A DNA stretch of 64,000 nt from a bacterium. GTDB taxonomy: Bacteria > Omnitrophota > Gorgyraeia > Zapsychrales > Zapsychraceae. Position numbers and translations under genes: made by a program. The notes beneath the pieces were generated by a model. That model did not search any database, was not told the DNA's origin, and saw nothing but the letters and a program-made list of their open reading frames with translations. Positions within the stretch are counted from its first letter, which is position 1. Each line of letters opens with the position of its first letter. Below are positions 7,654 to 51,011 of this stretch, in pieces. The stretch lies in the NCBI GenBank assembly GCA_030429765.1, contig JAUIER010000001.1, positions 1,014-65,013 of the forward strand, read 5' to 3'.

Positions 7654-8711
7654 AATTATTGATCGCAGCGCGGCTTAATTCGGAATATAAATTACGGACG
7701 ACCCTCGAGCCGATTCTGCAATTATCGATGATCGATCAGGTGTATCTGGTGCGGCGATATCCGATCGAGCTGCCCAAGACCATCTGCTATAGCCCGCCGG
7801 TTCTACTTCGCAAATCTATCCTTACGACCGAACTCTACCGTGTATGGAAGATCATGATGCTTTGTCTGTTCAAACGGCCGGACGGACTCATGGGGATTCA
7901 CTTTATCTTTCATTGCGTCTATACCGCGCTGGCGAAAATGATCTTCCGTATCCCTTTGATTATGCTGATCATCGAAAGCCCGGATAAATACCGACAGCAT
8001 CCTGTTTTCAATTTTCTGATGAGACGGGCGGATCTGGTGGGGGTGAGAGGGAATAATTCCCTGAAGTTTTTATCGAACACCGCGAAGGTCGACGAACCCC
8101 GCATATTTGTTACACCCGATGTTCATCGCTTTCAGAATCCCGAAGAGATCAAGGAAGCGGAAAAAAATTATGATTTGGTCTTTGTCGGATATTACACCAA
8201 GGCCAAGCGTATCGATATTCTGCTGGAGGTGGTTGACCGGATCCGGCAGCAAAAACCGGATGTGAGTCTGGCCCTCGTCGGAGATGGCCCCCTACATGAT
8301 TCGGTGGTGGAAAAGATTGACCAATTGGGATTGCATGACAATGTGGACCGGTTGGGGCATGTCAAAAGCATCTATCCTTATCTGAAAAGTTCGCGGATTT
8401 TTATCATGACGTCCCAGACAGAAGGATTGCCAACGGTGCTGCTGGAGGCCCTGGGGTTTGGATTGCCGTTCGTGGTGCCGGATGTAGGCGATGTCCGGGA
8501 CCTGGCGATCGACGATTACAACGCGATTGTGGTTGAAAAATTGGATGTCGACGCATTTGCCGCCGCCTGTCTCAAACTATTAGAGGATGATGAATATTAC
8601 CAAACGGTTCACGCCAATGCCTGCGCGTTTCGGGATGAACTAAAAGACCGCCATCGGTTTGAGTCGGTCCAGCGGCTGTGGGAAGAAAAGCTGAAGGTGA
8701 CGCTTCAATGA
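7650..8711 (+). CDS. Family-4 (GT-B) glycosyltransferase
   Basis: 'EGLPTVLLEALGFGLPFVVPDVGD' EX7E motif. The track ORF starts at 7551 but overlaps the previous gene. An ATG at 7650 forms an ATGA overlap with the upstream stop and gives 'MKLLIAARL...'. Confidence 0.75.
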   Translation: MKLLIAARLNSEYKLRTTLEPILQLSMIDQVYLVRRYPIELPKTICYSPPVLLRKSILTTELYRVWKIMMLCLFKRPDGLMGIHFIFHCVYTALAKMIFRIPLIMLIIESPDKYRQHPVFNFLMRRADLVGVRGNNSLKFLSNTAKVDEPRIFVTPDVHRFQNPEEIKEAEKNYDLVFVGYYTKAKRIDILLEVVDRIRQQKPDVSLALVGDGPLHDSVVEKIDQLGLHDNVDRLGHVKSIYPYLKSSRIFIMTSQTEGLPTVLLEALGFGLPFVVPDVGDVRDLAIDDYNAIVVEKLDVDAFAAACLKLLEDDEYYQTVHANACAFRDELKDRHRFESVQRLWEEKLKVTLQ

Positions 8712-10819
8712 AGGAGAACAAGTTGGGACACCGCGGGATCCACGTGTTGATGGGCATCGCCGCATTGATCTGGATGATTCCCTTTGCGGCGTTTTTTAAG
8801 CGCGAGATCGCCCTTTTCCCCGACGGATGGTCCTATTTCAACTGGACACGCTTTGTATATGACAATATTACACGAGGTGTGTATCCGCTGTGGCAGCCGT
8901 TTGATAATTGGGGATACCCGGTAGGGTTCAAGATTCGGTTTCTAGGCGAGTTCAATCCGCTGTTCTTGCTGATGATGATCCCCTATAAGCTGGGGATATC
9001 CTATCCTGTGGTTTATTTTGCATATGCGGTCGGATACTTTTTGCTCGGTATTTACGGGTTTTATCGAATCTGCCTGCATTTGACGCAGGATCAAATTTCG
9101 GCCTATCTGGGTTTTATCATATTGCTTTTTTCCAATATGGGGATCGCGATATTTTTCAATTATTGCGAGATTGCCTTATTTGTGCCGGCGGTTTGGTTCT
9201 TTTATTTTTTCCTGACGTTTTGTTCCGGGCCGACACGTTCATCACTCATCGGGATGACATTCGCGGTGATGATGATCTTGACGACCTACATGCCGTTTTA
9301 TTTTCTGACTGCTTTTTTAGCCTTTTTGGTCATCGCTGCTGTTTTGTACATGCGCGATTTGAAACCGATTCTGGTCCAGAGTCTCCGGTTTTTAATCCAG
9401 CATCGCGGATTAACGGTCTTGTGTGTGGCCGCTATACTTGTTTCAGCCGTACCGGGTTATATCACCTACAAGGAAACCGGGTCCAGCGAATTCAGTTATG
9501 ATCATCGAAAGGCTGACTCGTCGGAGAGCGCGGTGACAACAGGGGTCTCGATGGTCAACGCAGGGAGTATTCTGGGGCCGGTGACATGGCGGGGACTGTT
9601 ATTCGGACAAAAGTATCAGGACAATTATTTGTCCTACTTTTTTCTGCCGGCCGGGGCCATATTTATCCTGTTGATGACCATTTTTAATCCGTTTAACCGG
9701 CGGCTCGCGCTGTGTTTGGGGGTGGCCCTGGGTATGTTCTATATTGTGATCACCAACGCGTCGGGGGTGACACAGTTTCTGTATGATCGCGTGTTCTTTT
9801 TTAGAATCATGCGGAATATTTTCTATCTATTCTATCTGGCCGTTCCATTTGTAGTTTTTTTCGTGGTGGAACAGCTTCGGATTTGGATGGCGTCGGAAAA
9901 GCAGAATGGATCGATCTCAAGAATTTGGATTCTGTTGGTGGCGACGGGACTGATCGTATATCTCAAGATTCAAGGTCACGCGCTGGTATCTATTTATATC
10001 TCGGTTATCGGCATAGCATCGGCGCTGATTTTTAACGTTCAAAATTTTTCAAGATGGGCCTTTGCACTAGCCGTGACGTTTTTCTTTTTGGTTCATCCGA
10101 TCGATGTGTACCGTCATTATGTGTCGAATGTGGCTGAGGTCATCCCGGCCGGGGAAATCTTCGAGCCGCGGCATCCGAAATTTCACTATCAACGACCGGA
10201 CTTCGGCACCAAGCCGGCGTTTGCGGCCCATGAGTTTGAGGAAAGTTCAGGGTTCACCCTACAGAAATTTGCCGGGACGCAGGGGGCGGCATTGCTGCAG
10301 AACAATACCGATCCCGGGGCGATGAGCCGATATACACGCAATAAATTTATTGCCTATGATCAGACCGTCACGCAATCGTTCGCATCACAAAACTGGTTTC
10401 AGATCGGCCGGCATTTGATTGAATTGCAGAACGAGGCGATTGTCGTGGGCGACGGAGAATCAATCCGTCAGGCGCCGGCGTCGGCCCAGGTGATTTCGTC
10501 GGATTCGGACTTGTTCCGGGTCACGCACTTTGATTTGAACACCATCAGTTTTGAAACCAATTTCCCGACGAGAAAATTTATCGTTTACAACGATAGCTAT
10601 CACAGCGGATGGACGGCCCGTGTCAATGGAGAAGCCGGACCGATATGGCAGAGTAATATCGCTTTTAAAGGGCTGTGGCTTGAGGCGGGACCGAATCTAG
10701 TCCAGTTACGCTTCGGTTCGGTATGGCTCGAACGATTTTATTTTTTGCTGATGATCGTATTCATGTTGGTCTTTGCCGGGTTAATCCATCTACTTGTCCA
10801 GGAGCGATCGCGTGAATAA
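8708..10819 (+). CDS. Large polytopic membrane protein, YfhO-like/GT-C-like (many TM helices, a C-terminal extracytoplasmic domain, and a terminal TM anchor)
   Basis: ~13 predicted hydrophobic helices, then a ~200-aa soluble segment, then a final helix 'FLLMIVFMLVFAGLIHLL'. The ATG at 8708 overlaps the GT4 stop (ATGA). Confidence 0.5.
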   Translation: MKENKLGHRGIHVLMGIAALIWMIPFAAFFKREIALFPDGWSYFNWTRFVYDNITRGVYPLWQPFDNWGYPVGFKIRFLGEFNPLFLLMMIPYKLGISYPVVYFAYAVGYFLLGIYGFYRICLHLTQDQISAYLGFIILLFSNMGIAIFFNYCEIALFVPAVWFFYFFLTFCSGPTRSSLIGMTFAVMMILTTYMPFYFLTAFLAFLVIAAVLYMRDLKPILVQSLRFLIQHRGLTVLCVAAILVSAVPGYITYKETGSSEFSYDHRKADSSESAVTTGVSMVNAGSILGPVTWRGLLFGQKYQDNYLSYFFLPAGAIFILLMTIFNPFNRRLALCLGVALGMFYIVITNASGVTQFLYDRVFFFRIMRNIFYLFYLAVPFVVFFVVEQLRIWMASEKQNGSISRIWILLVATGLIVYLKIQGHALVSIYISVIGIASALIFNVQNFSRWAFALAVTFFFLVHPIDVYRHYVSNVAEVIPAGEIFEPRHPKFHYQRPDFGTKPAFAAHEFEESSGFTLQKFAGTQGAALLQNNTDPGAMSRYTRNKFIAYDQTVTQSFASQNWFQIGRHLIELQNEAIVVGDGESIRQAPASAQVISSDSDLFRVTHFDLNTISFETNFPTRKFIVYNDSYHSGWTARVNGEAGPIWQSNIAFKGLWLEAGPNLVQLRFGSVWLERFYFLLMIVFMLVFAGLIHLLVQERSRE

Positions 10820-28528: not shown

Positions 28529-29102
28529 AAATATCGACGGGGCGCTCGACTTTTTCGCCGAGGCGGGACTGCTCAAGCATATAAAACGCAGCGGATGGTG
28601 GGTGGCCGGGATCAAGGATCCCGAGTCCGTCGCCGAGCACAGTTTTCGCTGCGGCATTATGGCGTACTATCTCGCCCATATGGAGAAAGTTGACAGCAGC
28701 CGGGTGATGAAGATGGCCTTGTTCAATGACATTCATGAGGCGCGAATTAATGATCTGCACAAAATGGGGCATCATTATATCGATTTTCGCGACGCTGAAG
28801 CGCGTGTGTTTCAGGATCAGATGCAGGGGCTCAACTCAAGTTTTACCCGGGAGATGAAGGCTTTGCGTAAAGAATACGAAGATCAGGAAACCCCGGAAAG
28901 TATTGTCGCGCGTGACGCGGATATTCTTGAGTGTCTGTTACAGGCCAAGGAGTATTACGATAACGGACATACCAAGGCGAAAAAGTTTTTTCAGCGCGCG
29001 CCCAAACACTTAAAATCCGCGTCGGCCAAGAAGATATGGTCGCGCATACGTCAATGGGATAGTGGTGAATGGTGGGAGAAGGTGGTCAAATTTGAACGTT
29101 AA
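28491..29102 (+). CDS. HD-domain phosphohydrolase (YfbR-like)
   Basis: 'RSGWW...ESVAEHSFR' is the YfbR-type HD-domain N-terminus. Confidence 0.6.
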   Translation: MKSPNKASKGADKNIDGALDFFAEAGLLKHIKRSGWWVAGIKDPESVAEHSFRCGIMAYYLAHMEKVDSSRVMKMALFNDIHEARINDLHKMGHHYIDFRDAEARVFQDQMQGLNSSFTREMKALRKEYEDQETPESIVARDADILECLLQAKEYYDNGHTKAKKFFQRAPKHLKSASAKKIWSRIRQWDSGEWWEKVVKFER

Positions 29103-29112
29103 AGGTATTAGG

Positions 29113-29877
29113 ATGAAAAGGTTTTGTATATGGTGTGCCATGGGGATGATCGTCATCGGGTCGTCGGGGTGTGCGAGTCTGGGCACATTTAATCCTGCCA
29201 CCGGCCGAAATGAATTGCTGCTGATCTCGACATATCAGGAAGTTGCGCTGGGGCAGGAGGTGCATCAGACCCTGTCCGAGCAATACCAACTGTCGACGGA
29301 TTCGGCAAAGAATGCCCGTTTGCAGCGACTGGGCCAGCAAATGGCCAGTGTGTCGGATCGTCAGGACTATCAGTACACATTTTTCCTGGTTGACGAAGAT
29401 CAGCTTAATGCCTTCACCACACCGGGCGGACGCATTTATGTGTTTACCGGATTGATGGACCGGTTGACCGATGAGCAGCTGGCTTCGGTGCTGGCACATG
29501 AAATCGGGCATTGCGCCGCCAAACATACGGCCAAAAAGTACCAATCGGCATTGGGTTACAATCTGATTGGAAGTCTGGTTCTCGGGCAGATTGCCAGCGA
29601 CAGCGCCCGGCAATTGGCCTCCATCAGTTCCGGCGCCATTATGCAGCTGGTATCGTCTTCCTACAGCCGGCGGGACGAATACGAAGCGGACCGGCTGGCG
29701 GTGAAATATATGCAGCGGGCCGGCTATGATCCCAAGGCCGTCATCGGAGCGTTCGAAGTTCTGAAGGCCAATTCAGGCGGGTCGCAGATTCCCCTCATTC
29801 TTCGCAGCCATCCATATCTTGATGACCGAATTACTGCGGTAAAACAGCAGATAGCCACGGGATCTGTCCAGCCATAG
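29113..29877 (+). CDS. M48-family Zn-metallopeptidase lipoprotein (LoiP/BepA-like)
   Basis: The signal peptide ends in 'SSGC'. 'HEIGHCAAKH' is the HExxH motif, followed by 'EYEAD' downstream. The start was moved to the ATG at 29113. Confidence 0.8.
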   Translation: MKRFCIWCAMGMIVIGSSGCASLGTFNPATGRNELLLISTYQEVALGQEVHQTLSEQYQLSTDSAKNARLQRLGQQMASVSDRQDYQYTFFLVDEDQLNAFTTPGGRIYVFTGLMDRLTDEQLASVLAHEIGHCAAKHTAKKYQSALGYNLIGSLVLGQIASDSARQLASISSGAIMQLVSSSYSRRDEYEADRLAVKYMQRAGYDPKAVIGAFEVLKANSGGSQIPLILRSHPYLDDRITAVKQQIATGSVQP

Positions 29878-29974
29878 AGAGTCAATTTTCTAAAAAATTT
29901 AATTTTTAAATTATCAGTTGTTTTTTTAATGTTAGAATGATGAAAGCCTTGAACCGTATGATTGACGAAAGGCG

Positions 29975-30274
29975 TTGCAAATGAAAAGGATCGGGATCGC
30001 CGCCAGCCGGATTTCCAAAGGGAATGTTGTGCACTACAATTTGTGTGTGGTGGGCATTTCGCTGCTGGTGTCGTTGTTTCTTTTCTTAATTGCCGGGTTG
30101 GCCGTATTGCTGGCCATCGGCTTAGTGGCTTTTTTCGGTCACGAAACAATGACGGAAGAATTGCGGAACAACTGGACGACGATCATGTCGCTATGTGCCA
30201 GGGCGTTGGGGCTGGCTGTTGTCGTGTTCAATATTGTTGCCCTGGCTATCAATATCAAGATACCGCCGAAGTAA
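29975..30274 (+). CDS. Small hypothetical membrane protein (2 TM helices)
   Basis: 99 aa. Preceded by an AT-rich promoter-like region (TAGAAT). No family recognised. Confidence 0.35.
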   Translation: MQMKRIGIAASRISKGNVVHYNLCVVGISLLVSLFLFLIAGLAVLLAIGLVAFFGHETMTEELRNNWTTIMSLCARALGLAVVVFNIVALAINIKIPPK

Positions 30275-30286
30275 GTTCAAAACTTT

Positions 30287-32593
30287 ATGTCTACCAAATC
30301 TATCGAATACAAAGAAATCATCGAGAACATTCAAACGAATATCGGACGTGTCCTGCCCGCCACCAAGCCGAAGTTCATATATATGAATGAACATATGCGC
30401 AGTCGGTTTGGATACAATCTCAAGAACATGCAGAAGGTCTACCTGGAGAATCTTTTTGGAGAGCGTCGGGTGTTTCTCAAATTCAGGAAAGAACTTTACA
30501 CCGAAAACCGGGTGAGCAAATTCGAGGCCCGTCTTAAAGGCGTTCAGAAAACATCATTCTGGTGCTCGATCTCGGCGGTGATGACGCGTGATCGAATCGG
30601 CAATCCGAAACATATTGATCTTTATATCGAAGATATTTCCTCACGTAAACGCTATGAGAAAGAATTGGTTGAGTCCAAGGAGTTGTTTCAGACCGTGTTT
30701 AACAACACGGCGGCGGCCATCATGGTGACCGATAAGAATGAGCGGCTGGTGGCCTGGAATCCGTACGCGGAACATTTACTGGAAATGGAACGTGAAGATT
30801 TGTTCAATAAACCGGTCAAGGAATTGTATCCGGCCAAAGAATGGCGCCGGATTAAGTCGTATAAGATCGGACAGAAAGGCGTGAAAGCCAATATTGAGAC
30901 GCAGATTTACAAAAAAGACGGGTCGCTGCTTGAGGTAAATATCTCGGTGTCGATGCTCAAAGATCTGGAAGGCAAGGCCATCGGATCAATCGGGATCATT
31001 CGGGACATCACTCAGCAGAAGGAAGATGAACGAAAGATCCGCGAGTCGGAAAACAAGATACGGATTATTCTCGATAACTCGGCGGCCAGTATCACCTTAA
31101 CAGATGAACAGGAGCGGATTGTTTCCTGGAACCGATACACCGAAGAGCTGCTGGGGATGAAGAAGAAAGATTTGTACCTGAAGCATATCAGCACGCTGTA
31201 TCCCAAGGAAGAATGGGAGAAGATTCGCGGGGAAAATATCCGAAAGACCGGTTCCAAGCATCATATGGAAACCAAGATTGTGAAGAAGAACGGCGATCTC
31301 GTCGACGTGGATCTGTCGGTCAATATTTTGAGTGATGAGGATAAGGGTATCACCGGTTCGGTTGGAATTATGCAGGACATCACGCAGCAGAAACGCGCGC
31401 AGGAGATGCTGATTCAGGCCAAGATTGCCGCGGAAGAGGCCAATAACGCCAAGTCGCTGTTTCTGGCCAACATGTCGCACGAAGTGCGGACACCGATCAA
31501 CACCATTATCGGGATGCTCGATCTGACGCTTGACACCACGCTTAATCAGGAGCAGCAGGATAATCTGGAAGTGGCCAAGGACGCGTCGGTTAATCTGCTG
31601 AGTTTGTTGAATGATATCCTGGATCTGTCACGGGTCGAGGCCGGCAAGATCAGCCTGGAGGACATCGAGTTTCATATGCACAATGTCGCGCACAGCGTGA
31701 CCAAGGGGATGTCGGTGCTGGCCAAGAAAAAGGGATTGGAAACCGTCTTAAATATCCAAAATGATGTTCCTCAACTGGTCGAAGGTGATCCCGTCCGGTT
31801 GCGGCAGGTCATTGTGAATCTCATCAATAACGCCATCAAGTTTACACACAAGGGCAAGATCACGACGGAGATCAAGGTCGCCTCCAAAAACGGCAACGAG
31901 ATCATGCTGTTATTCTCCATCATTGATGAAGGGATCGGTATTCCTAAAAGCAAACAGGACAAAATTTTTGACATCTTCGCGCAGGCGGATGATTCCACGA
32001 CAAGACGATTCGGCGGGACCGGACTTGGGCTGGCGATATCCAAACGTCTGGTGGAGATGATGGGTGGACGAATCTGGGTGGAAAGTGAAGAGGGTAAAGG
32101 CAGTGCGTTTAATTTCACCGCCAATTTTAAGATTGTCAAAGAAAAGTCCCTATCATCTGCCGGTCTTGAATCCGGGGTTGAGATTGACGATAAATATATT
32201 CAGGAACAGCTTCAGGGAATTAAAATTTTGTTGGCTGAGGACAATATCGTGAATCAAAAGATCGCGGTTAAACTTTTGGAAAAACAAGGATGGGTCGTGA
32301 CAGCGGTTGACAACGGACAGGATGCTGTCGACAAGGCTCTGCATAATAATTATGATGTCGTTCTGATGGACGCCAATATGCCGATTCTCGACGGGCTCGA
32401 GGCGACACGGCTGATCCGGGAGAATGAACAGAAAACAGGGAAGCATATTCCAATTATCGCTTTGACGGCACGCGCGATGCAGGAAGACAAAAAGCGCTGT
32501 CTGGATTCCGGTATGGATGGTTATGTGACCAAGCCCATAGATCGTAAAGAGCTTTTTCAGACGATCGGAAAAATCATCAAACAAGGAAGGTAA
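30287..32593 (+). CDS. Hybrid sensor histidine kinase: multiple PAS domains, HisKA, HATPase and a C-terminal receiver
   Basis: PAS repeats ('AAAIMVTDKNERLVAWN', 'AASITLTDEQERIVSWN'). H-box 'MSHEVRTPIN'. G-boxes 'DEGIGIP' and 'GGTGLGLAISK'. REC 'ILLAEDN...VVLMDANMPILDG'. Confidence 0.9.
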   Translation: MSTKSIEYKEIIENIQTNIGRVLPATKPKFIYMNEHMRSRFGYNLKNMQKVYLENLFGERRVFLKFRKELYTENRVSKFEARLKGVQKTSFWCSISAVMTRDRIGNPKHIDLYIEDISSRKRYEKELVESKELFQTVFNNTAAAIMVTDKNERLVAWNPYAEHLLEMEREDLFNKPVKELYPAKEWRRIKSYKIGQKGVKANIETQIYKKDGSLLEVNISVSMLKDLEGKAIGSIGIIRDITQQKEDERKIRESENKIRIILDNSAASITLTDEQERIVSWNRYTEELLGMKKKDLYLKHISTLYPKEEWEKIRGENIRKTGSKHHMETKIVKKNGDLVDVDLSVNILSDEDKGITGSVGIMQDITQQKRAQEMLIQAKIAAEEANNAKSLFLANMSHEVRTPINTIIGMLDLTLDTTLNQEQQDNLEVAKDASVNLLSLLNDILDLSRVEAGKISLEDIEFHMHNVAHSVTKGMSVLAKKKGLETVLNIQNDVPQLVEGDPVRLRQVIVNLINNAIKFTHKGKITTEIKVASKNGNEIMLLFSIIDEGIGIPKSKQDKIFDIFAQADDSTTRRFGGTGLGLAISKRLVEMMGGRIWVESEEGKGSAFNFTANFKIVKEKSLSSAGLESGVEIDDKYIQEQLQGIKILLAEDNIVNQKIAVKLLEKQGWVVTAVDNGQDAVDKALHNNYDVVLMDANMPILDGLEATRLIRENEQKTGKHIPIIALTARAMQEDKKRCLDSGMDGYVTKPIDRKELFQTIGKIIKQGR

Positions 32594-32596
32594 ACT

Positions 32597-32944
32597 ATGA
32601 GCGACGACATTCTTGATGTGCCGGAATTTATGGAGCGGGTTCAGGATGACAAAGATTTATTGCGTGAGCTCCTCGACATATTTATGGAAGACTATGCGCA
32701 AAAACGTAAAAATCTCGGCGAGGCCATTATGGCCAAAGATTTTGAGTCGATCCGCAGTATCGGCCACTCGGTGAAGGGCGCGTCGGGAAATATTTCCGCG
32801 AAACGTGTTCGCGAGATATGCATGCAGTTGGAGAACAAGGGTAAGGATCAGGACGGCGAGGGCTTGGAAGATCTCCTGGCCAGTCTTGATAAGGAATATG
32901 AACAGCTCAAGGAACGGATCGCCGTCGTCCAACAAGAACTCTAG
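32597..32944 (+). CDS. Hpt (histidine phosphotransfer) domain protein
   Basis: 'HSVKGASGNISAKRV' Hpt motif. 115 aa, starting 4 nt after the kinase stop. Confidence 0.8.
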   Translation: MSDDILDVPEFMERVQDDKDLLRELLDIFMEDYAQKRKNLGEAIMAKDFESIRSIGHSVKGASGNISAKRVREICMQLENKGKDQDGEGLEDLLASLDKEYEQLKERIAVVQQEL

Positions 32945-32946
32945 CC

Positions 32947-34638
32947 ATGAAGCTTTTGAGCTTCAACAATTGGAATGGTCTGACGATATTGGCTGTGCTG
33001 GCCGTTATCGGGTTTTTGTGTTATGGCCGGGTCATTTCCTATCCGTTTGTTCATGATGATGTCGTTTTCATCGTCAACAATCCTGACATCAAATCACTTG
33101 ATCTCATTGAGATTTTTCATCCGCGTGCGGTGGACACCGCCGTGCCGGAGCTGGTTAATACCTATTATCGTCCATTGATTGAACTGGTTCATCGGATCCA
33201 GTACCGACTATTCGGACTCACGCCTCACGGCTATCATCTCACTAATATAATCCTGCATATCCTCAACGCCTTTATGTTGTTTGCGTTGTTCACCCGGTTG
33301 AAGACTCTAACCAAAGGGATCGCGTTTAGCGCGGCGGTGATTTTTCTCGTGCATCCGGTTCAAACCGAATCGGTGGCCTGTATTTCCGGGATATCGAACG
33401 TGCTGCTGCTGACCATGATGCTGGGGAGTTTTCATCTCTACCTCGATGGTACGCGTAAAGGAGTTTTCTGGAAGTATCTGCTAGCGTTGGTGATTTTTCT
33501 AATCGGCTGTTTTGTCAAGGAGCAGATGATTGTCCTGCCGTTTGTCATCGCCTTGTTCGAATGGCTGACAGACCGTCGCATGAAGTCCGTGGCGGGATAT
33601 CTAATCCCGCTTGTAGTTTACTTTGTGCTTCGTAAATTGATCTTGGGATTCTCCACGACGGTGATTTTTGATCCCAACGGCGAGTATCTGCTGAGAATGG
33701 CCGCCATTCCGCGATCGATCCTGACTTATTTGTCGTTGATGATCTTTCCGGTGAACCTGCATTATTATCGAAGTTTGAATGTGCTGGAACCCAGCATATT
33801 TGCGGCGATGATTGTGGCGGTTTTAATCGGTATTGTATATTGGGGGTGTCGACGATTTCAGTCACCGTATCGGCCTTATGTGATTTTCGGTCTGGGCTGG
33901 ATGATGCTGACGATTGCCCCGATGCTCAATATCATTCCGTTGGTTAACGAGTACGCGAGCATCCTCAACTTTGAACATTTTCTGTACATTCCATTGGCTG
34001 GGATGAGTTTGATAGTTTGTCTGGTGGCTGCGCATGCGGCGGAAAAATTTAAAGTTTCACCTTCAATGCTACGGAATATCATTATCTGTGTCATGATCGT
34101 GGGCTCGGGACTGACGATCCATCAGAATCGATTCTGGCGGTCCGAGATCGCGTTGTTCGAACGTACACTAAATTATGTCGATTCGGCCCGTGTCCGCATC
34201 CTGCTGGGGAAGGCGTACTACTTTGATGGGCGTCACCATGATGCCATCGGGCAGTACCAGCAGGCGCTGGATCAGATGGGCCAATATATTCGTCGGGCGA
34301 CAAATCCTTCATTAACAGCGTTTTACACGGGGTTTATCAAAGAGATTTATTTTGACCTAGCCCATTGTTACGAGGCTTTGAAAAATTGGCCGCAAGCCGT
34401 TAAAATGTATCGTCAGGGGATTGAAATCGATCCGACAGATATAAATTTCTACAACAACCTGGCCGTTCTGTATATCCGGCAGTCCGAGTATAAATCGGCC
34501 ATTCGGTATCTGGAACAGGCCCTGGTGCTGAATCCGCAGCATCCGATAACGCGCCAGAATCTGGCTTATTGTCTGGTTCAAGTCGGTCAAAAAGACCGGG
34601 CCGATCAACTAATGCAAACAGAAAGACGAAATCCATGA
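32947..34638 (+). CDS. TMTC-like GT-C membrane glycosyltransferase (DUF1736-type N-terminal domain) fused to C-terminal TPR repeats
   Basis: The N-terminus has 'YPFVHDDVVFIVNNP...YYRPL'. There are ~10 TM helices, then TPR repeats ('AHCYEALKNWPQAVKMYRQGIEIDP', 'YNNLAVLYIRQSEYKSAIRYLEQAL'). Confidence 0.7.
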   Translation: MKLLSFNNWNGLTILAVLAVIGFLCYGRVISYPFVHDDVVFIVNNPDIKSLDLIEIFHPRAVDTAVPELVNTYYRPLIELVHRIQYRLFGLTPHGYHLTNIILHILNAFMLFALFTRLKTLTKGIAFSAAVIFLVHPVQTESVACISGISNVLLLTMMLGSFHLYLDGTRKGVFWKYLLALVIFLIGCFVKEQMIVLPFVIALFEWLTDRRMKSVAGYLIPLVVYFVLRKLILGFSTTVIFDPNGEYLLRMAAIPRSILTYLSLMIFPVNLHYYRSLNVLEPSIFAAMIVAVLIGIVYWGCRRFQSPYRPYVIFGLGWMMLTIAPMLNIIPLVNEYASILNFEHFLYIPLAGMSLIVCLVAAHAAEKFKVSPSMLRNIIICVMIVGSGLTIHQNRFWRSEIALFERTLNYVDSARVRILLGKAYYFDGRHHDAIGQYQQALDQMGQYIRRATNPSLTAFYTGFIKEIYFDLAHCYEALKNWPQAVKMYRQGIEIDPTDINFYNNLAVLYIRQSEYKSAIRYLEQALVLNPQHPITRQNLAYCLVQVGQKDRADQLMQTERRNP

Positions 34639-35327
34639 CCGCGCCATCACCCGCTACCCTTACGGCCTTTATCCTGCTTGTTGTGCTAACCGTGTTATTG
34701 ATCGAGGTGTTGTTGATTCCGGAAGTCAAAAAACGGACCCGCAAACGCAAAAAGAATCGTAAGCCGGAGCCATCCGAAGAAGAGCTGAAACTGCGTGAAT
34801 CGATCAAGCGGATGGAGAACAAGATCGACAGTCTAAAAGCCGAACTGGATGAGGCTGCGCTGAATGCCAAGCGTCTGGAGAAATCCATCGAAGAGGAGCA
34901 GGCCAAGTCGGCCAAGCTTCAGGAAAAGCTCACGACGGAGCGCGGCTGGCATGAAAAAGAGCAGCAGGAGATTTATAAGAAGAACAAAGAGATCCAAAAA
35001 ATGCGCGAGGAGTTTCAGATTGAACAGGAAAACTTTAGTCGTGAGCATACGGAGTTTATCAAACTTGAGCATGAGCTTAAACGGGTGAAGAGTGAGTATC
35101 AGGAATTGCACAATCAGAAGCGGGCACTTGAGCGGGAAAACTCAATCTTTAAAGGTAAGATCGAAGGTCAGCGAAAAGAGATCATGAATCTCAAAGGAGA
35201 TATTGCCGGGCTGAACAAGAAAAAGGAAGAAGAGAGCTGGATTGCCAAGTCTGAATACGGTCGGTTGGAAAAAGAAATGGAAAAGCTTCAGAAAGAACTG
35301 GAACGGGTGCAACGTGACCAAGACTAG
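34635..35327 (+). CDS. Membrane-anchored coiled-coil protein (K/E-rich)
   Basis: An N-terminal TM helix, then a ~190-aa heptad-like KE-rich sequence. An ATGA overlap with the upstream stop (the track ORF starts earlier at 34569). Confidence 0.5.
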   Translation: MTAPSPATLTAFILLVVLTVLLIEVLLIPEVKKRTRKRKKNRKPEPSEEELKLRESIKRMENKIDSLKAELDEAALNAKRLEKSIEEEQAKSAKLQEKLTTERGWHEKEQQEIYKKNKEIQKMREEFQIEQENFSREHTEFIKLEHELKRVKSEYQELHNQKRALERENSIFKGKIEGQRKEIMNLKGDIAGLNKKKEEESWIAKSEYGRLEKEMEKLQKELERVQRDQD

Positions 35328-36510
35328 TAAGTTTAATTTTGCCCGTCGCTGTGACTGGGATCTTCAGACGAATGAGATCACCCGTCTCAAGGAACAGCTG
35401 ATCCGGCAAGGCACGGACATCATTGATTTGACGGTTTCAAATCCCACCCAATGCGGTCTGATCTTTGACCAGGATATATCGTTGGCTGAATTGTCGGATG
35501 ACCGCAACAGATTGTATAGCGCGGAATCTCAAGGGATGGCAGAAGCGCGTGCCGCCGTCAGTCAGATGTACGCCAAGCAGGGAGTGAATGTCGCACCTGA
35601 ACGGATATTTTTGACAGCGTCGACGTCCGAGGCCTACACCTACCTGTTTCGGTTGCTGGCCAATCCGGACGATACCGTTCTATTTCCCGCTCCGAGTTAT
35701 CCGCTGTTTAATTTTCTGGGGACATTGAATGATGTCCGGATCAATTTTTATCAGTTAATGTATGATCAACGGTGGCAGATAGATTTTGCGGACTTGGTTG
35801 AACAGCTGCAACCTGACGCCCGGGCGATTGTGTTGGTGAATCCCAACAATCCAACAGGATCTTATGTGTCCAATGAAGAGATCGGACATTTGAACCGGAT
35901 ATGCGCGGACCGGCAGATGGCGATCATCAGCGACGAGGTATTTTTTGATTTCAATCACCAACGGCAAAGTTTCACCAGCCTGGCCGGTAATGAGCCCGCC
36001 TTGACGTTTGTGATGGGCGGTTTATCCAAGACGCTGGGATTTCCGCAAATGAAACTTTCGTGGATTATACTCAGCGGGCCGGACGATCTGGTTGCGCAGG
36101 CCCGATCCAAACTGGAAATTATTGCCGACACATTTCTGTCGGTAAATACGCCGGTCCAGAACGCGTTGCCGCAATGGTTGGCCCAGAAAGCGCATCGTCA
36201 GCAGCCGATTCAGCAGCGGATAAAGGCCAATCTTGAATGCCTTAAGCAATCAATTGATGGCTTGCGGGCGGCCCAGCTGTTGGATGTTCAGGGTGGATGG
36301 TACGCCATTGTCAGAATTGACCAGACCAGGACCGAAGAGGAATGGGTGCTGAAATTGCTTGGCAAGTATCATGTGTTCGTACATCCGGGATTTTTTTATG
36401 ACTTTGCCGAAGGTTCCCATCTGGTGCTGAGTTTATTGCCACCGACGGAACGCTTTAGGGATGGCGTCGAAAGGATGCTGAGCCGTTTAGAACAGCCCTA
36501 TCACGGATGA
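35309..36510 (+). CDS. Class I/II PLP-dependent aminotransferase
   Basis: 'GGLSKTLGFPQMKLSWI' Lys-PLP region, 'NPNNPTG' and 'DEVF' motifs. The start is uncertain; GTG at 35309 overlaps the upstream gene (track start 35242). Confidence 0.7.
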
Positions 36511-36584
36511 CGCCGACGGTAAATTGCTTTAATTTCAGGTTTTAATTTGCTATCATGACAGGATGTTCGGAAAGGATATAACAT

Positions 36585-36998
36585 ATGACAAACAATCCAG
36601 TTAAAGTGTTAATGGCCGAGGATGAGATCGATGTCCTCACAGTGATGAGCAAATCCATCGCTCGTCATGGCTACGAGGTGGTCACCGCGTCCAATGGTGA
36701 AGAGGCCTGGGAAAAGATACAGCAGGAATCACCGGACGTGATTTTGCTCGATATCAATATGCCGCTAAAGAATGGCTTTGAAGTGCTGAAGCTGCTGAGG
36801 GAAAATCCCAGTAGTGACAAATGGCAGCCGGTCATCATTATCTCGGCCCGCTCGGAACTTAGCGATATGCAGAAAAGTTATAATCTTGAAGCCGATCATT
36901 ACATCACCAAGCCCTGTCAGATGGACGATATTCTCAAATCGATCCGTCTGATGGTCAATTTAATACCACAACATAAAAAACCGTCGGAAATGGACTAA
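36585..36998 (+). CDS. Single-domain response regulator (CheY-like receiver)
   Basis: 'VLMAEDE' acid pocket, 'LLDINMP' phosphoacceptor Asp, 'IIISA' and 'YITKP' motifs. 137 aa. Confidence 0.85.
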   Translation: MTNNPVKVLMAEDEIDVLTVMSKSIARHGYEVVTASNGEEAWEKIQQESPDVILLDINMPLKNGFEVLKLLRENPSSDKWQPVIIISARSELSDMQKSYNLEADHYITKPCQMDDILKSIRLMVNLIPQHKKPSEMD

Positions 36999-37026: not shown

Positions 37027-37836
37027 ATGAAAATCCTTGTAGGACTTATGATCACTCTGGGAGTGATGTTTTTAGCCATTCGAATTCTTGAAAAAATTTC
37101 TGTATTTTTTCCGTCGAAGGAGATTCTGCAGACACCCGCCAGCGTGCGGCTCGATTTTGAAGATGTCTTTATCACCGATGGACAGGCCGCCATTCGAATT
37201 CACGGCTGGTGGATTCCACGGATGGGCGCGGATAAAACCGTTTTATTTCTGCATGGAAATGCCGGGAATATCGGAGATCGGCTGGACAAGGCCCAATTGT
37301 TTCATGAACTGGGTGTGAATGTACTCATGATCGACTATCGCGGGTTCGGTCGCAGTGAAGGTAAGCCCACGGAAGCCGGCATGTATCGGGACAGTCAGCT
37401 CGCTCTTAATTTTCTATACGATGATAAGGGGATTCCGTCCCAGGATGTGGTGGTTTACGGTGATTCGCTCGGCGGTGTCGCTGCAACATATGTGGCGGCG
37501 CACAATGAGGTTGGCGGATTGGTGGTGGACTCGTCGTTCACGCATTCACGCGATATGGCCCGCTACATGTATCCATGGGTGCCGTCGTTTTTGGTCCGAA
37601 AGATGCTGGATTCGCTCGAACGGATTGTGCAGGTGGATGAGCCTAAATTATTTTTCCATAGTCCGGAAGACCGGACGGTCCCGTTTGCGCTCGGACGCAA
37701 GCTGTTTGACGCGGCCGCTCAGCCCAAGACATTTATCGAAACCCGTGGTGGGCATAATGATGCCCATCTGCATTCCGATGATCTCTATCGAGACGCGCTT
37801 TCCCGGTTTCTTGAAGATCTGCACGTCCGTCAATAG
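37027..37836 (+). CDS. Alpha/beta-fold hydrolase with an N-terminal TM anchor
   Basis: 'GDSLGG' nucleophile elbow and 'HGNAGN'. Confidence 0.7.
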   Translation: MKILVGLMITLGVMFLAIRILEKISVFFPSKEILQTPASVRLDFEDVFITDGQAAIRIHGWWIPRMGADKTVLFLHGNAGNIGDRLDKAQLFHELGVNVLMIDYRGFGRSEGKPTEAGMYRDSQLALNFLYDDKGIPSQDVVVYGDSLGGVAATYVAAHNEVGGLVVDSSFTHSRDMARYMYPWVPSFLVRKMLDSLERIVQVDEPKLFFHSPEDRTVPFALGRKLFDAAAQPKTFIETRGGHNDAHLHSDDLYRDALSRFLEDLHVRQ

Positions 37837-50939: not shown

Positions 50940-51011
50940 TGCCCGGTGGTGTAATTGGTAACACAGCAGAATTTGGATCTGCTTTTCCAGGTTCGAGTCC
51001 TGGCTGGGCAG
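50940..51011 (+). tRNA. tRNA-Gln (anticodon UUG)
   Basis: The cloverleaf was folded by hand. A 7-bp acceptor with a U1·A72 pair, D-stem GTGT/ACAC, anticodon stem GCAGA/TCTGC, loop aUUUGGa, T-arm CCAGG-TTCGAGT-CCTGG, and discriminator G. No CCA is encoded. Confidence 0.85.

What the first reader, a model, noticed from the sequence alone, without database searches (positions are those of the whole stretch)
30287..36998. Phosphorelay operon with an embedded TMTC-like GT-C/TPR glycosyltransferase
A hybrid PAS histidine kinase (with its own receiver), a stand-alone Hpt, a TMTC/DUF1736-type membrane glycosyltransferase with C-terminal TPRs, a membrane-anchored coiled-coil protein and an aminotransferase are packed with 2-4 nt gaps or overlaps. 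A single-domain response regulator follows 75 nt later. Eukaryotic TMTC proteins O-mannosylate proteins. A bacterial homolog wired into an HK→Hpt→RR relay suggests signal-controlled periplasmic protein glycosylation, or a glycosyltransferase acting as a scaffold for signalling
Basis: partly seen in the sequence, partly recalled or inferred. Interest (0 to 1): 0.6.

Follow-up and report, generated by a model that had tools for sequence, protein, structure and literature searches.

The report
Phosphorelay genes beside a TPR glycosyltransferase
The genes are real and keep this order in nearly all 80 Omnitrophota species examined, but at least 22 kb around them, housekeeping genes included, is just as conserved, so a functional link between the signalling proteins and the membrane glycosyltransferase is plausible but unproven.

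Summary
On the + strand lie a PAS hybrid histidine kinase, a stand-alone Hpt, a GT-C-fold membrane glycosyltransferase with C-terminal TPRs, a membrane-anchored coiled-coil protein, a class I/II aminotransferase and a receiver-only response regulator. The gaps between them are 3, 2, -4, -14 and 74 nt.

The "DUF1736" label is not supported: the catalytic domain has no Pfam match, and relatives hit PMT_2 only.

The window comes from an Omnitrophota genome. In 80 species-level relatives the order small ORF-HK-Hpt-GT-C-coiled coil is almost universal. However, the whole stretch from GreA to ABC-F (at least 22 kb, housekeeping genes included) is equally syntenic. Tight spacing is also the norm in this genome, with 27 of 50 junctions at or below 20 nt.

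The aminotransferase (AlaA-like) and the regulator are backbone neighbours rather than members of the module. In most relatives ferritin, dCMP deaminase or YchF genes lie between them and the cluster. The kinase is missing in 5 and kinase plus Hpt in 2 of 53 loci that can be judged.

Most likely this is a co-transcribed envelope cluster holding a working phosphorelay and a periplasm-facing glycosyltransferase. Direct signal control of glycosylation remains speculative. Interest is moderate.

The parts
29911..29938 (+). Promoter-like site (TTATCA, 16 nt spacer, TG-TAGAAT) in the 103-nt AT-rich gap upstream of the small ORF. Possible start of the transcription unit in this genome.
   Evidence: Consensus scan, (9 of 12 matches plus extended -10 TG); sequence. 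Weak: 26 such sites were found against 15.5 expected in shuffles.
29981..30274 (+). Small membrane protein of 97 aa with 2-3 predicted TM helices and a strongly conserved N-terminus (MxRIGIAASKIxKGNL). First gene of the conserved core.
   Evidence: Translation. Found in 58 loci. Within 100 nt of the kinase gene in 47 of 49 loci. No Pfam hit. Kept even where the kinase is lost.
30287..32593 (+). Soluble hybrid histidine kinase: N-terminal region, PAS domains, HisKA (His398), HATPase_c, REC (Asp695). No TM segment.
   Evidence: Pfam; NCBIfam BarA/TorS/ArcB/LuxQ-like partial hits. His398 and Asp695 invariant in 59 of 59 orthologues.
32597..32944 (+). Stand-alone Hpt phosphotransfer protein (115 aa, His57 in HSVKG).
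   Evidence: PF01627, E=1.8e-15. His57 in 75 of 75 and Gly61 in 75 of 75 orthologues. Always within 100 nt after the kinase gene (66 of 66).
32947..34638 (+). Membrane glycosyltransferase of the GT-C fold: 11 TM helices, N-terminus inside, DD motif (D37 D38) in the first periplasmic loop. Followed by a short periplasmic TPR domain of about 4 repeats (residues ~400-561). TMTC-like in architecture.
   Evidence: AlphaFold2 pLDDT 89.6 and 81.8 for the N-terminal domain. The top 26 Foldseek PDB hits are all GT-C enzymes: STT3/PglB, ArnT, Pmt1/2/4, AftD, Emb, DPY19. Invariant residues. TPR Pfam hits. PMT_2 in 7 of 12 relatives and DUF1736 in 0 of 12.
34635..35327 (+). Bitopic membrane protein (230 aa): short N-terminus, one TM helix, a polybasic stretch (KKRTRKRKKNRK), then about 180 aa of coiled coil predicted to be cytoplasmic. 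Its start overlaps the GT-C stop (ATGA).
   Evidence: Sequence. Weak coiled-coil hits. Conserved WVAKS and EKL..E..W..KE motifs in 66 sequences. Within 100 nt after the GT-C gene in 52 of 65 loci. The cytoplasmic location is inferred from the positive-inside rule.
35314..36510 (+). Class I/II PLP aminotransferase, AlaA or alanine-aminotransferase-like. Probably a housekeeping neighbour, not part of the module.
   Evidence: PF00155. Best NCBIfam and PDB matches are alanine aminotransferase PRK08363, 1xi9 and E. coli AlaA 4cvq. Separated from the coiled-coil gene by ferritin-like, flavoreductase-like or DAHP-synthase-like genes in 20 of 59 loci (those names are from reading the sequences, not tested).
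36585..36998 (+). Receiver-only response regulator (137 aa; Asp13, Asp56, Lys109). A candidate end-point of the relay, but its closeness to the cluster is specific to this lineage.
   Evidence: PF00072 only. Asp56 and Lys109 in 37 of 37. Within 100 nt of the aminotransferase gene in only 5 of 38 loci, against 32 of 35 for the hydrolase gene downstream. Absent from 8-10 kb downstream in 14 of 44 loci.
29062..29877 (+). M48 (LoiP/BepA-like) metalloprotease gene directly upstream. Envelope-related context, present in about half of the relatives.
   Evidence: PF01435, E=7e-40; NCBIfam BepA and LoiP partial hits. M48 to small ORF gap <=100 nt in 31 of 35 loci.
37027..37836 (+). Membrane-anchored alpha/beta hydrolase, the gene most constantly linked to the RR.
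   Evidence: Pfam Hydrolase_4 and Abhydrolase_1. RR to hydrolase gap <=100 nt in 32 of 35 loci.

Best explanation
This is a conserved Omnitrophota envelope gene cluster. Its cohesive core is small membrane protein, soluble PAS hybrid kinase, Hpt, TPR-bearing GT-C glycosyltransferase and membrane-anchored coiled-coil protein. In this genome the core is most likely transcribed as one unit from the gap at about 29.9 kb.

Shown:
- The kinase, Hpt and RR carry every residue needed for a His-Asp-His-Asp relay.
- The glycosyltransferase has a GT-C fold, an invariant DD in its first external loop, and its TPR domain on the same (periplasmic) side.

Inferred:
- The kinase senses a cytoplasmic or membrane-proximal cue through its PAS domains, perhaps with the small membrane protein. 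It passes phosphate through its own receiver and Hpt to receiver-only regulator(s), which act by protein-protein contact.
- The GT-C enzyme uses a polyprenyl-phosphate sugar to glycosylate periplasmic or outer-envelope acceptors, most likely proteins picked out by the TPR domain.
- The two activities are coupled at the level of shared expression in an envelope-maintenance cluster, not by a demonstrated biochemical link.
- The aminotransferase and the adjacent RR owe their position to the very stable genome backbone of this phylum and to the local absence of genes that separate them elsewhere.
For: - Domains and catalytic residues.
- GT-C fold and topology. Family invariants D37, D38, Y73, R75, P76, K191, E192, H272, E343, H344 and Y347.
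- Short gaps and overlaps in the window.
- Cohesion across about 76 non-redundant loci from 80 species representatives: small ORF to HK 47 of 49, HK to Hpt 66 of 66, Hpt to GT-C 55 of 74, GT-C to coiled coil 52 of 65 within 100 nt.
- The inserts between Hpt and GT-C that were inspected (L014, L041, L023, L081) hold an anchored 334-399-aa protein. In L014 and L081 a DUF1318/YdbL-family periplasmic protein follows it. Inserts at the coiled coil|aminotransferase and aminotransferase|RR junctions look like housekeeping genes: ferritin-like, flavoreductase-like, DAHP-synthase-like, dCMP deaminase, YchF.
- An M48 envelope protease gene sits directly upstream in many loci.
- In one lineage a 2xREC regulator lies between the GT-C gene and a second TPR GT-C paralogue.
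- A promoter-like site lies in the only sizeable upstream gap.
Against: - Gene-order conservation is not specific to these genes. The region from GreA through SpoU, HD hydrolase, pseudouridine synthase and ABC-F is equally syntenic. Unrelated genes are packed just as tightly throughout the window.
- The kinase is absent in 5 and kinase plus Hpt in 2 of 53 loci that can be judged, while the GT-C gene persists. The enzyme therefore does not need the relay.
- There is no output domain on the RR, no transcript data, no donor or acceptor information, and no fusion protein linking the two functions.
- Promoter and terminator scans are near background.
Confidence: 0.5

Rival explanations
1. Direct signalling control. 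The phosphorelay gates glycosylation after translation. For example, phosphorylated Hpt or the receiver-only RR binds the cytoplasmic coiled coil of the membrane protein that is translationally coupled to the GT-C enzyme. Alternatively the GT-C/TPR protein acts as the periplasmic sensor or scaffold for the otherwise soluble kinase.
For: - Hpt and GT-C genes are on the same strand and in the same order in all 74 loci that have both, with <=20 nt between them in 43.
- The kinase has no membrane or periplasmic sensor of its own, while two membrane proteins and a periplasmic TPR domain are encoded beside it.
- The RR has no output domain, so it must act through a protein partner.
- An extra 2xREC protein lies between two TPR GT-C genes in L032.
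Against: - There is no physical or co-evolutionary evidence.
- The GT-C and coiled-coil genes persist where the kinase, or kinase plus Hpt, are gone.
- The RR is usually separated from the cluster by housekeeping genes and is absent nearby in 14 of 44 loci.
- The conserved order is matched by unrelated neighbours.
Confidence: 0.13
2. Pure backbone synteny. The relay and the glycosyltransferase are functionally unrelated systems. They sit side by side only because gene order in these small, compact Omnitrophota genomes is almost frozen.
For: - At least 22 kb is collinear in relatives whose GT-C proteins are only 31-49% identical, including clearly unrelated genes: GreA, SpoU, HD, dCMP deaminase, RluA-like, ABC-F.
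- 87% coding density and a median 18-nt same-strand gap in the window.
- The relay genes are lost from the locus in some lineages without loss of the GT-C gene.
Against: - The inserts inspected inside the core are envelope genes, while those outside it look like housekeeping genes.
- The Hpt to GT-C and GT-C to coiled-coil junctions are often overlapping or near-abutting, which favours co-translation.
- There is an envelope theme among neighbours: M48 protease and a YdbL-family protein.
Confidence: 0.3
3. The GT-C enzyme modifies a non-protein envelope acceptor (lipid A or LPS core, peptidoglycan or a polysaccharide), as ArnT or the Emb/Aft enzymes do. The TPR domain would then serve as an assembly scaffold. 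On this view the cluster resembles two-component-regulated lipid A modification (PmrAB with ArnT or EptA).
For: - ArnT (5f15, 5ezm), AftD and Emb enzymes are among the structural matches.
- A GFO/IDH/MocA oxidoreductase, a hexapeptide acyltransferase and a small GT2 lie 3-5 kb upstream in all relatives. Together they could make and lipid-link a modified sugar.
Against: - The aminotransferase is AlaA-like, not the DegT/ArnB type used for sugar amination.
- There is no DNA-binding regulator.
- TPR domains fused to GT-C enzymes are, where studied (TMTC1-4), associated with protein acceptors (PMC7801869).
- STT3/PglB and Pmt enzymes, which act on proteins, match as well as or better than ArnT.
Confidence: 0.2

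Closest known systems
Eukaryotic TMTC1-4 protein O-mannosyltransferases (GT-C/PMT clan; Pfam PMT_2 plus DUF1736 plus TPR)
   Same: - Two-part architecture: N-terminal GT-C domain with 11 TM helices, then a C-terminal TPR domain on the non-cytoplasmic side.
- DD in external loop 1 (D37 D38).
- YRP of motif M2 (Y74 R75 P76).
- KEQ of motif M4 (K191 E192 Q193).
- E..xxY of motif M7 (E343, Y347).
Sources.

Full-length prokaryotic homologues of TMTCs are known to exist but are uncharacterised (PMC7801869).
   Different: - No match to the DUF1736 profile in this protein or in 12 relatives.
- Motif M3 (RxD) is replaced by GISN, M5 (DW) by HYYR, and M6 (PxxP) by PxxxxxP.
- The Arg of M7 is His.
- Only about 4 TPR-like repeats.
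- Bacterial periplasm, so the donor would be a polyprenyl-phosphate sugar rather than dolichyl-phosphate mannose.
- Sugar and acceptors are unknown.
ArnT and PmrA/PmrB (two-component-regulated lipid A modification; eptA/pmrC co-transcribed with pmrAB). From general knowledge.
   Same: - A GT-C membrane transferase acting on the periplasmic face, with structural similarity to 5f15 and 5ezm.
- An envelope-modifying membrane enzyme encoded in or next to a two-component operon.
- An aminotransferase gene nearby.
   Different: - The relay here is multi-step (hybrid kinase plus Hpt) and ends in a receiver-only protein, not a DNA-binding regulator.
- The aminotransferase is AlaA-like, not ArnB/DegT.
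- The enzyme has a TPR domain and 11 rather than 13 TM helices.
Multi-step phosphorelays with a separate Hpt protein (LuxQ-LuxU-LuxO, RcsC-RcsD-RcsB, GacS-network kinases with HptB)
   Same: - Hybrid kinase with its own receiver followed by a stand-alone Hpt with the HxxKG motif. Best NCBIfam partial matches are BarA, TorS, LuxQ, ArcB and, for Hpt, LuxU.
- All phospho-sites are invariant.
- Like Rcs, it is embedded among envelope genes.
   Different: - The kinase is soluble, with PAS domains only.
- No cognate output regulator with an effector domain is encoded nearby.
- A membrane glycosyltransferase gene directly follows Hpt, which is not a feature of those systems.
- None of the equivalog cut-offs is reached.
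Bacterial and fungal protein O-mannosyltransferases (PMT family, GT39; Pmt1/2, Pmt4; actinobacterial Pmt)
   Same: GT-C fold with an acidic pair in loop 1. PMT_2 or PMT Pfam hits in relatives. Structural matches to 9i5k and 6p25.
   Different: No MIR domain; a TPR domain instead. Sequence similarity is too low for a Pfam hit in the window protein itself.

Membership tests
GT-C fold glycosyltransferases (PMT/ArnT/STT3-like) | Multi-spanning N-terminal domain whose fold matches solved GT-C enzymes | tested here: met
   N-terminal domain model pLDDT 81.8, pTM 0.87. The top 26 Foldseek PDB hits are all GT-C enzymes, with query TM-score 0.37-0.54 and best E 9e-4. E-values are modest, but the hit list is uniform.
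GT-C fold glycosyltransferases (PMT/ArnT/STT3-like) | Acidic catalytic pair (DD, DE or DxD) in the first non-cytoplasmic loop | tested here: met
   FVHDD: D37 is invariant in 63 sequences, and D38 is >=90% conserved there and invariant in the 12-sequence set. It lies just after TM1 (helix 11-31).
GT-C fold glycosyltransferases (PMT/ArnT/STT3-like) | Uses a polyprenyl-phosphate-linked sugar donor | not testable with these tools
   Inferred from the fold only. A small GT2 (27019-27750) that could make such a donor lies upstream, but its role was not tested.
TMTC family (GT105; PMT_2 plus DUF1736 plus TPR) | N-terminal GT-C domain of 11 TM helices followed by TPRs on the non-cytoplasmic side | tested here: met
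   Helix map of the AlphaFold model, plus basic residues in the alternate short loops (sequence). This gives N-terminus in, 11 TM helices, TPR out. TPR Pfam hits at residues 466-560.
TMTC family (GT105; PMT_2 plus DUF1736 plus TPR) | Match to the Pfam DUF1736 profile (the TM7-TM8 loop) | tested here: not met
   No hit at E<=10 for the window protein and none at E<=1 in 12 family members. HMMER's filters could hide a very weak match.
TMTC family (GT105; PMT_2 plus DUF1736 plus TPR) | Seven conserved motifs M1-M7 of TMTC1-4 (PMC7801869, Table 4) | tested here: inconclusive
   M1 (DD), M2 (YRP part) and M4 (KEQ) are present. M7 is partial (EHxxY in place of ERxxY). M3, M5 and M6 are not kept. The comparison was done by eye on motifs, not by profile-profile alignment to TMTC sequences.
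TMTC family (GT105; PMT_2 plus DUF1736 plus TPR) | Protein O-mannosylation activity | not testable with these tools
   No biochemical data. No solved TMTC structure was found by sequence or among the listed fold matches.
His-Asp-His-Asp multi-step phosphorelay | Hybrid kinase with H-box His, ATPase domain and receiver Asp | tested here: met
   HisKA, HATPase_c and Response_reg. His398 and Asp695 in 59 of 59 orthologues.
His-Asp-His-Asp multi-step phosphorelay | Hpt protein with a phospho-accepting His in HxxKG | tested here: met
   PF01627, E=1.8e-15. His57 in 75 of 75, Lys60 in 74 of 75 and Gly61 in 75 of 75.
His-Asp-His-Asp multi-step phosphorelay | Terminal response regulator that is a partner of this Hpt | tested here: inconclusive
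   A receiver-only protein with Asp13, Asp56 and Lys109 intact follows 74 nt after the aminotransferase gene. Its adjacency is not conserved (5 of 38). Partnership cannot be judged from sequence.
Single operon (co-transcription of HK through RR) | Same strand, short or overlapping junctions | tested here: met
   Gaps of 12, 3, 2, -4, -14 and 74 nt. The same holds for most unrelated genes in the window.
Single operon (co-transcription of HK through RR) | Gene order conserved beyond background synteny | tested here: inconclusive
   The order is conserved in about 76 loci, but so is the whole stretch of at least 22 kb. Only the kind of insert at each junction sets the core apart from its flanks.
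Single operon (co-transcription of HK through RR) | One transcript | not testable with these tools
   No transcript data. Promoter and terminator scans are near background.
Arn/Pmr-type regulated lipid A modification | DegT/ArnB-type sugar aminotransferase and a DNA-binding response regulator | tested here: not met
   The aminotransferase is PF00155 and AlaA-like. The RR is receiver-only.

The most novel reading that the evidence does not exclude
A phosphorelay directly gates periplasmic protein glycosylation. Phospho-Hpt or the receiver-only regulator would dock on the cytoplasmic coiled coil of the bitopic membrane protein that is translationally coupled to the TPR GT-C enzyme. That docking would switch the enzyme, or its choice of acceptors, on and off. 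Possible acceptors include the giant repeat-rich surface proteins typical of Omnitrophota. This would be the first signal-controlled GT-C protein glycosylation system in bacteria and would give a function to the very large, uncharacterised family of bacterial TMTC-like enzymes.
Probability: 0.12. Interest if true: 0.75.

Novelty: new variant of a known kind. Interest (0 to 1): 0.4.

Why it matters
Bacterial GT-C enzymes with TPR domains form a very large family. A profile of this catalytic domain finds 105,129 cluster representatives at E<=1e-3 and 16,810 at E<=1e-30. No member was found to have a known function in the papers searched.

Here one orthologous group appears to be a near-universal gene of a whole candidate phylum. 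It sits directly behind an intact Hpt and hybrid kinase. If the neighbourhood reflects function, it offers a defined, testable entry point: three soluble proteins for phosphotransfer assays and one enzyme with an obvious DD catalytic mutant. That would address both what these enzymes glycosylate and how uncultured, ultra-small Omnitrophota regulate their envelope.

If it does not reflect function, the case is a useful warning. In phyla with frozen gene order, conserved synteny does not indicate an operon-level functional link.

Tried and rejected
1. Full-length sequence and fold searches were swamped by the TPR domain. They were repeated with the N-terminal 405 aa.
3. A profile search of PDB sequences with the catalytic domain found nothing.
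4. An Arn-like sugar pathway (oxidoreductase plus aminotransferase plus acetyltransferase plus GT2 plus GT-C) was considered. It was set aside because the aminotransferase is AlaA-like and is separated from the cluster by unrelated genes in a third of the loci.
5. A search for a fusion protein linking signalling and GT-C domains was negative. The one long hit (P0208, 969 aa) is a tandem duplication of the GT-C/TPR unit.
6. The other two GT-C-like genes in the window are not detectably similar to this one by BLASTP.
7. No Rfam element lies in the cluster or its gaps.
8. Literature searches for bacterial TMTC-like function, or for this cluster in Omnitrophota, found nothing specific.
9. L075 is the only locus with an unrelated context. 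It is probably a paralogue or a rearrangement.
10. I did not use the metagenome scan or the two remaining homologue searches. Their best hits would again have been the same Omnitrophota orthologues.

Full report
WHAT IS THERE. The region carries, all on the + strand:
- a 768-aa hybrid histidine kinase (30287-32593)
- a 115-aa Hpt protein (32597-32944)
- a 563-aa membrane protein with C-terminal TPRs (32947-34638)
- a 230-aa protein with one N-terminal TM helix, a polybasic stretch and a long coiled coil (34635-35327)
- a class I/II aminotransferase (35314-36510, if the GTG start is used)
- a 137-aa receiver-only response regulator (36585-36998)

Pfam and NCBIfam confirm the kinase domains (PAS, HisKA, HATPase_c, REC), Hpt (E=1.8e-15), the TPRs, the aminotransferase and the receiver. 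Read from the DNA, the junctions are 12, 3, 2, -4 (ATGA), -14 and 74 nt. Public gene calls on an identical contig give the same 230-aa and 398-aa products.

The packing itself carries little information. The window is about 87% coding, and 27 of 50 same-strand junctions are <=20 nt. These include junctions between plainly unrelated genes such as peptide deformylase, MlaEFD, GreA, SpoU methylases, RmuC and HisG.

THE GLYCOSYLTRANSFERASE. The N-terminal 405 residues match no Pfam or NCBIfam model, even at E<=10. They also match no PDB sequence, even with a family profile.

AlphaFold2 with 63 homologues gives a confident model (pLDDT 89.6). The N-terminal domain alone reaches pLDDT 81.8. Foldseek of that domain against the PDB returns, as its top 26 matches, only GT-C enzymes: STT3 and PglB, ArnT, Pmt1/2 and Pmt4, AftD, EmbA/B/C and DPY19.

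The helix map, with basic residues in the alternate short loops, gives 11 TM helices with the N-terminus inside. That places the invariant FVHDD (D37 D38) and the TPR domain on the periplasmic side.

I compared the family with the seven TMTC motifs of Eisenhaber et al. (PMC7801869):
- Kept: DD, the YRP of motif M2, and KEQ of M4.
- Partial: M7 is EHxxY instead of ERxxY.
- Not kept: M3, M5 (the DW of DUF1736) and M6.

Seven of 12 relatives hit Pfam PMT_2 and none hits DUF1736. So "GT-C with TPRs, TMTC-like in architecture" is supported, and "DUF1736-type" is not. The wider family is very large: 105,129 cluster representatives at E<=1e-3. The TMTC paper notes that full-length prokaryotic homologues exist but are uncharacterised.

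WHERE IT COMES FROM, AND CONSERVATION. Homologues are almost all from Candidatus Omnitrophota metagenome-assembled genomes. A scan of one genome per species returned 80 loci. I searched them with all window proteins and rebuilt the gene boundaries.

Nearly every locus is the orthologous place, with this order:
GFO/IDH/MocA oxidoreductase - hexapeptide transferase - GT2 - SpoU methylase - HD hydrolase - (M48 protease) - small ORF - kinase - Hpt - GT-C/TPR - coiled coil - aminotransferase - ... - RR - alpha/beta hydrolase - SpoU - pseudouridine synthase - ABC-F.

GT-C identity runs from 31 to 49% and kinase identity from about 47 to 83% (L004's short partial hit apart). Pfam-annotated contigs show the same layout. 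Upstream, GreA and a minus-strand PMT_2 gene are also in place. The collinear stretch is therefore at least 22 kb.

But it cannot tell function from a frozen backbone, because housekeeping junctions are just as constant: SpoU to HD in 57 of 57 loci, and GFO to hexapeptide transferase in 43 of 45.

WHAT THE JUNCTIONS SAY. Junctions within 100 nt:

| Junction | Loci within 100 nt |
|---|---|
| small ORF to kinase | 47 of 49 |
| kinase to Hpt | 66 of 66 |
| Hpt to GT-C | 55 of 74 |
| GT-C to coiled coil | 52 of 65 |
| coiled coil to aminotransferase | 36 of 59 |
| aminotransferase to RR | 5 of 38 |
| RR to hydrolase | 32 of 35 |

What is inserted differs by position:
- Between Hpt and GT-C, 16 loci have an insert of more than 300 nt. 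In the four I inspected it holds a membrane-anchored 334-399-aa protein. In two of these (L014, L081) a DUF1318/YdbL-family periplasmic protein follows it (PF07027, E about 1e-18), and L081 also has a small lipoprotein-like ORF between them. This recalls E. coli ydbH-ynbE-ydbL, an outer-membrane lipid-homeostasis system (PMC11126948). The large protein itself has no Pfam hit, so that is only a lead.
- Between GT-C and coiled coil, the insert (inspected in L032, and indicated by tblastn in L016, L039 and L080) is a second TPR GT-C paralogue. In L032 a 2xREC regulator comes with it.
- Between coiled coil and aminotransferase the inserts are ferritin-like, flavoreductase-like and DAHP-synthase-like genes or a restriction system. 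These names come from reading the sequences and were not tested.
- Between aminotransferase and RR the insert is nearly always dCMP deaminase, sometimes with YchF (also named from the sequences).

The cohesive, envelope-themed core is thus small ORF - kinase - Hpt - GT-C - coiled coil, often with the M48 protease gene abutting upstream. The aminotransferase and the RR are backbone neighbours. The aminotransferase's best matches are alanine aminotransferases 1xi9 and E. coli AlaA. The closeness of both genes in this window reflects the absence here of the genes that separate them elsewhere.

IS THE RELAY FUNCTIONAL, AND IS IT NEEDED? The following are invariant across 59, 75 and 37 orthologues respectively: kinase His398 and Asp695, Hpt His57, and RR Asp56 and Lys109. 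The relay components are therefore under selection as phosphotransfer proteins.

Of 53 loci with enough upstream sequence, 46 have kinase plus Hpt. Five have Hpt directly after the small ORF with no kinase; I verified this in L071. Two have neither: L081 keeps the small ORF, and L075 is an unrelated context. The RR is missing from 8-10 kb downstream in 14 of 44 loci. The GT-C and coiled-coil pair therefore does not depend on the relay genes being present at the locus. That fits an accessory or regulatory relation, or no relation, but not an obligate complex.

HOW IT MOST LIKELY WORKS. Shown:
- an intact His-Asp-His-Asp component set
- a GT-C enzyme with its catalytic loop and TPR domain facing the periplasm
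- near-abutting or overlapping genes
- phylum-wide cohesion of the five-gene core

Inferred:
- The soluble PAS kinase senses an internal or membrane-proximal cue, possibly with the conserved small membrane protein, whose N-terminus MxRIGIAASKIxKGNL is strongly conserved. It feeds receiver-only regulator(s) through Hpt.
- The GT-C enzyme transfers a sugar from a polyprenyl-phosphate donor to periplasmic or surface acceptors, probably proteins, chosen by its short TPR domain.
- The coiled-coil protein is placed in the cytoplasm by its polybasic stretch and is translationally coupled to the enzyme. It is the best candidate for any physical bridge between the two systems.

I put about 0.5 on [quoted passage not shown], about 0.3 on "no functional relation, backbone synteny only" and about 0.13 on direct control of glycosylation by the relay. 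Whether the acceptor is protein or lipid/glycan is a separate question. I favour protein, with about 0.2 on a non-protein acceptor.

A promoter-like site (TTATCA-16-TGnTAGAAT, 29911-29938) lies in the 103-nt gap before the small ORF. No convincing terminator lies inside the cluster, and these scans are close to background. No Rfam element is present there.

COMPARISON AND NOVELTY. The parts are known kinds: a LuxQ/BarA/TorS-like hybrid kinase with a LuxU-like Hpt, and a GT-C/PMT-clan enzyme with TMTC-like architecture.

What was not described in the papers I could search is the near-universal placement in one phylum of such an enzyme directly behind an Hpt gene. The enzyme family itself departs from TMTCs at three of seven motifs and lacks Pfam coverage of its catalytic domain.

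I rate it a new variant of a known kind, with moderate interest (0.4). It is a clean, testable neighbourhood, but the evidence for functional wiring is weak because gene order in these genomes is so stable.

Noticed in passing
window 29981-30274 (+): Conserved 97-aa membrane protein gene 12 nt upstream of the kinase, with an almost invariant N-terminus (MxRIGIAASKIxKGNL). It has no family assignment. It is retained even in lineages that lost the kinase and Hpt.
   Followed up: partly
L014 8233-9905; L041 8997-10001; L023 8865-9872; L081 5654-7502: In 16 of 74 relatives an insert of more than 300 nt lies between Hpt and the GT-C gene. In the four loci inspected it holds a membrane-anchored 334-399-aa protein with no Pfam hit. 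In L014 and L081 a DUF1318/YdbL-family periplasmic protein follows it, and L081 also has a small lipoprotein-like ORF. This is reminiscent of E. coli ydbH-ynbE-ydbL.
   Followed up: partly
L032 11625-14571: A response regulator with two receiver domains lies between the GT-C/TPR orthologue and a second, 693-aa TPR GT-C paralogue. L016, L039 and L080 also carry a weaker second GT-C match just downstream.
   Followed up: partly
window 19958-21346 (-), 21771-23141 (-), 23408-25324 (+): Further GT-C-like membrane proteins lie close by. The 456-aa minus-strand protein hits PMT_2 (E=6e-8). The neighbouring 462-aa minus-strand protein (no Pfam hit) matches the same places in relatives and appears to be its paralogue. 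The 638-aa + strand protein hits PMT_2 weakly (E=1e-4) and found no counterpart in the relatives' loci. The 456-aa and 638-aa proteins are not BLASTP-similar to the TPR GT-C enzyme.
   Followed up: partly
window 25437-27750 (+): GFO/IDH/MocA oxidoreductase, hexapeptide-repeat transferase and a 243-aa GT2 form a tight trio that is syntenic in nearly all relatives. They could make and lipid-link a modified sugar for one of the nearby GT-C enzymes.
   Followed up: no
window 36510-36585; relatives, e.g. L044 13583-14056: Most relatives carry a dCMP deaminase gene (sometimes with YchF) between the aminotransferase and the RR. It is missing from that place in the window and its closest relatives. 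Gene names are from reading the sequences, not from a family search.
   Followed up: partly
L005 12075-17698 (same place as L009): In one relative a giant protein of more than 3,117 aa with SpvB, FG-GAP, fn3 and YD-shell domains directly follows the aminotransferase, where the RR sits in the window.
   Followed up: no
window about 17698-44140 and loci L006-L085: Gene order is collinear over at least 22 kb (GreA to ABC-F) across 80 Omnitrophota species representatives, with insertions and deletions the only changes seen apart from one locus (L075). MlaD upstream and HhH-GPD and RmuC downstream are also in place in the few loci compact enough to show them.
   Followed up: partly
window 8678-10819 (+): A large ORF of 713 aa with no Pfam match at E<=1e-6.
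   Followed up: no
window 50940-51011 (+): The only Rfam match in the 64-kb window is one tRNA.
   Followed up: no
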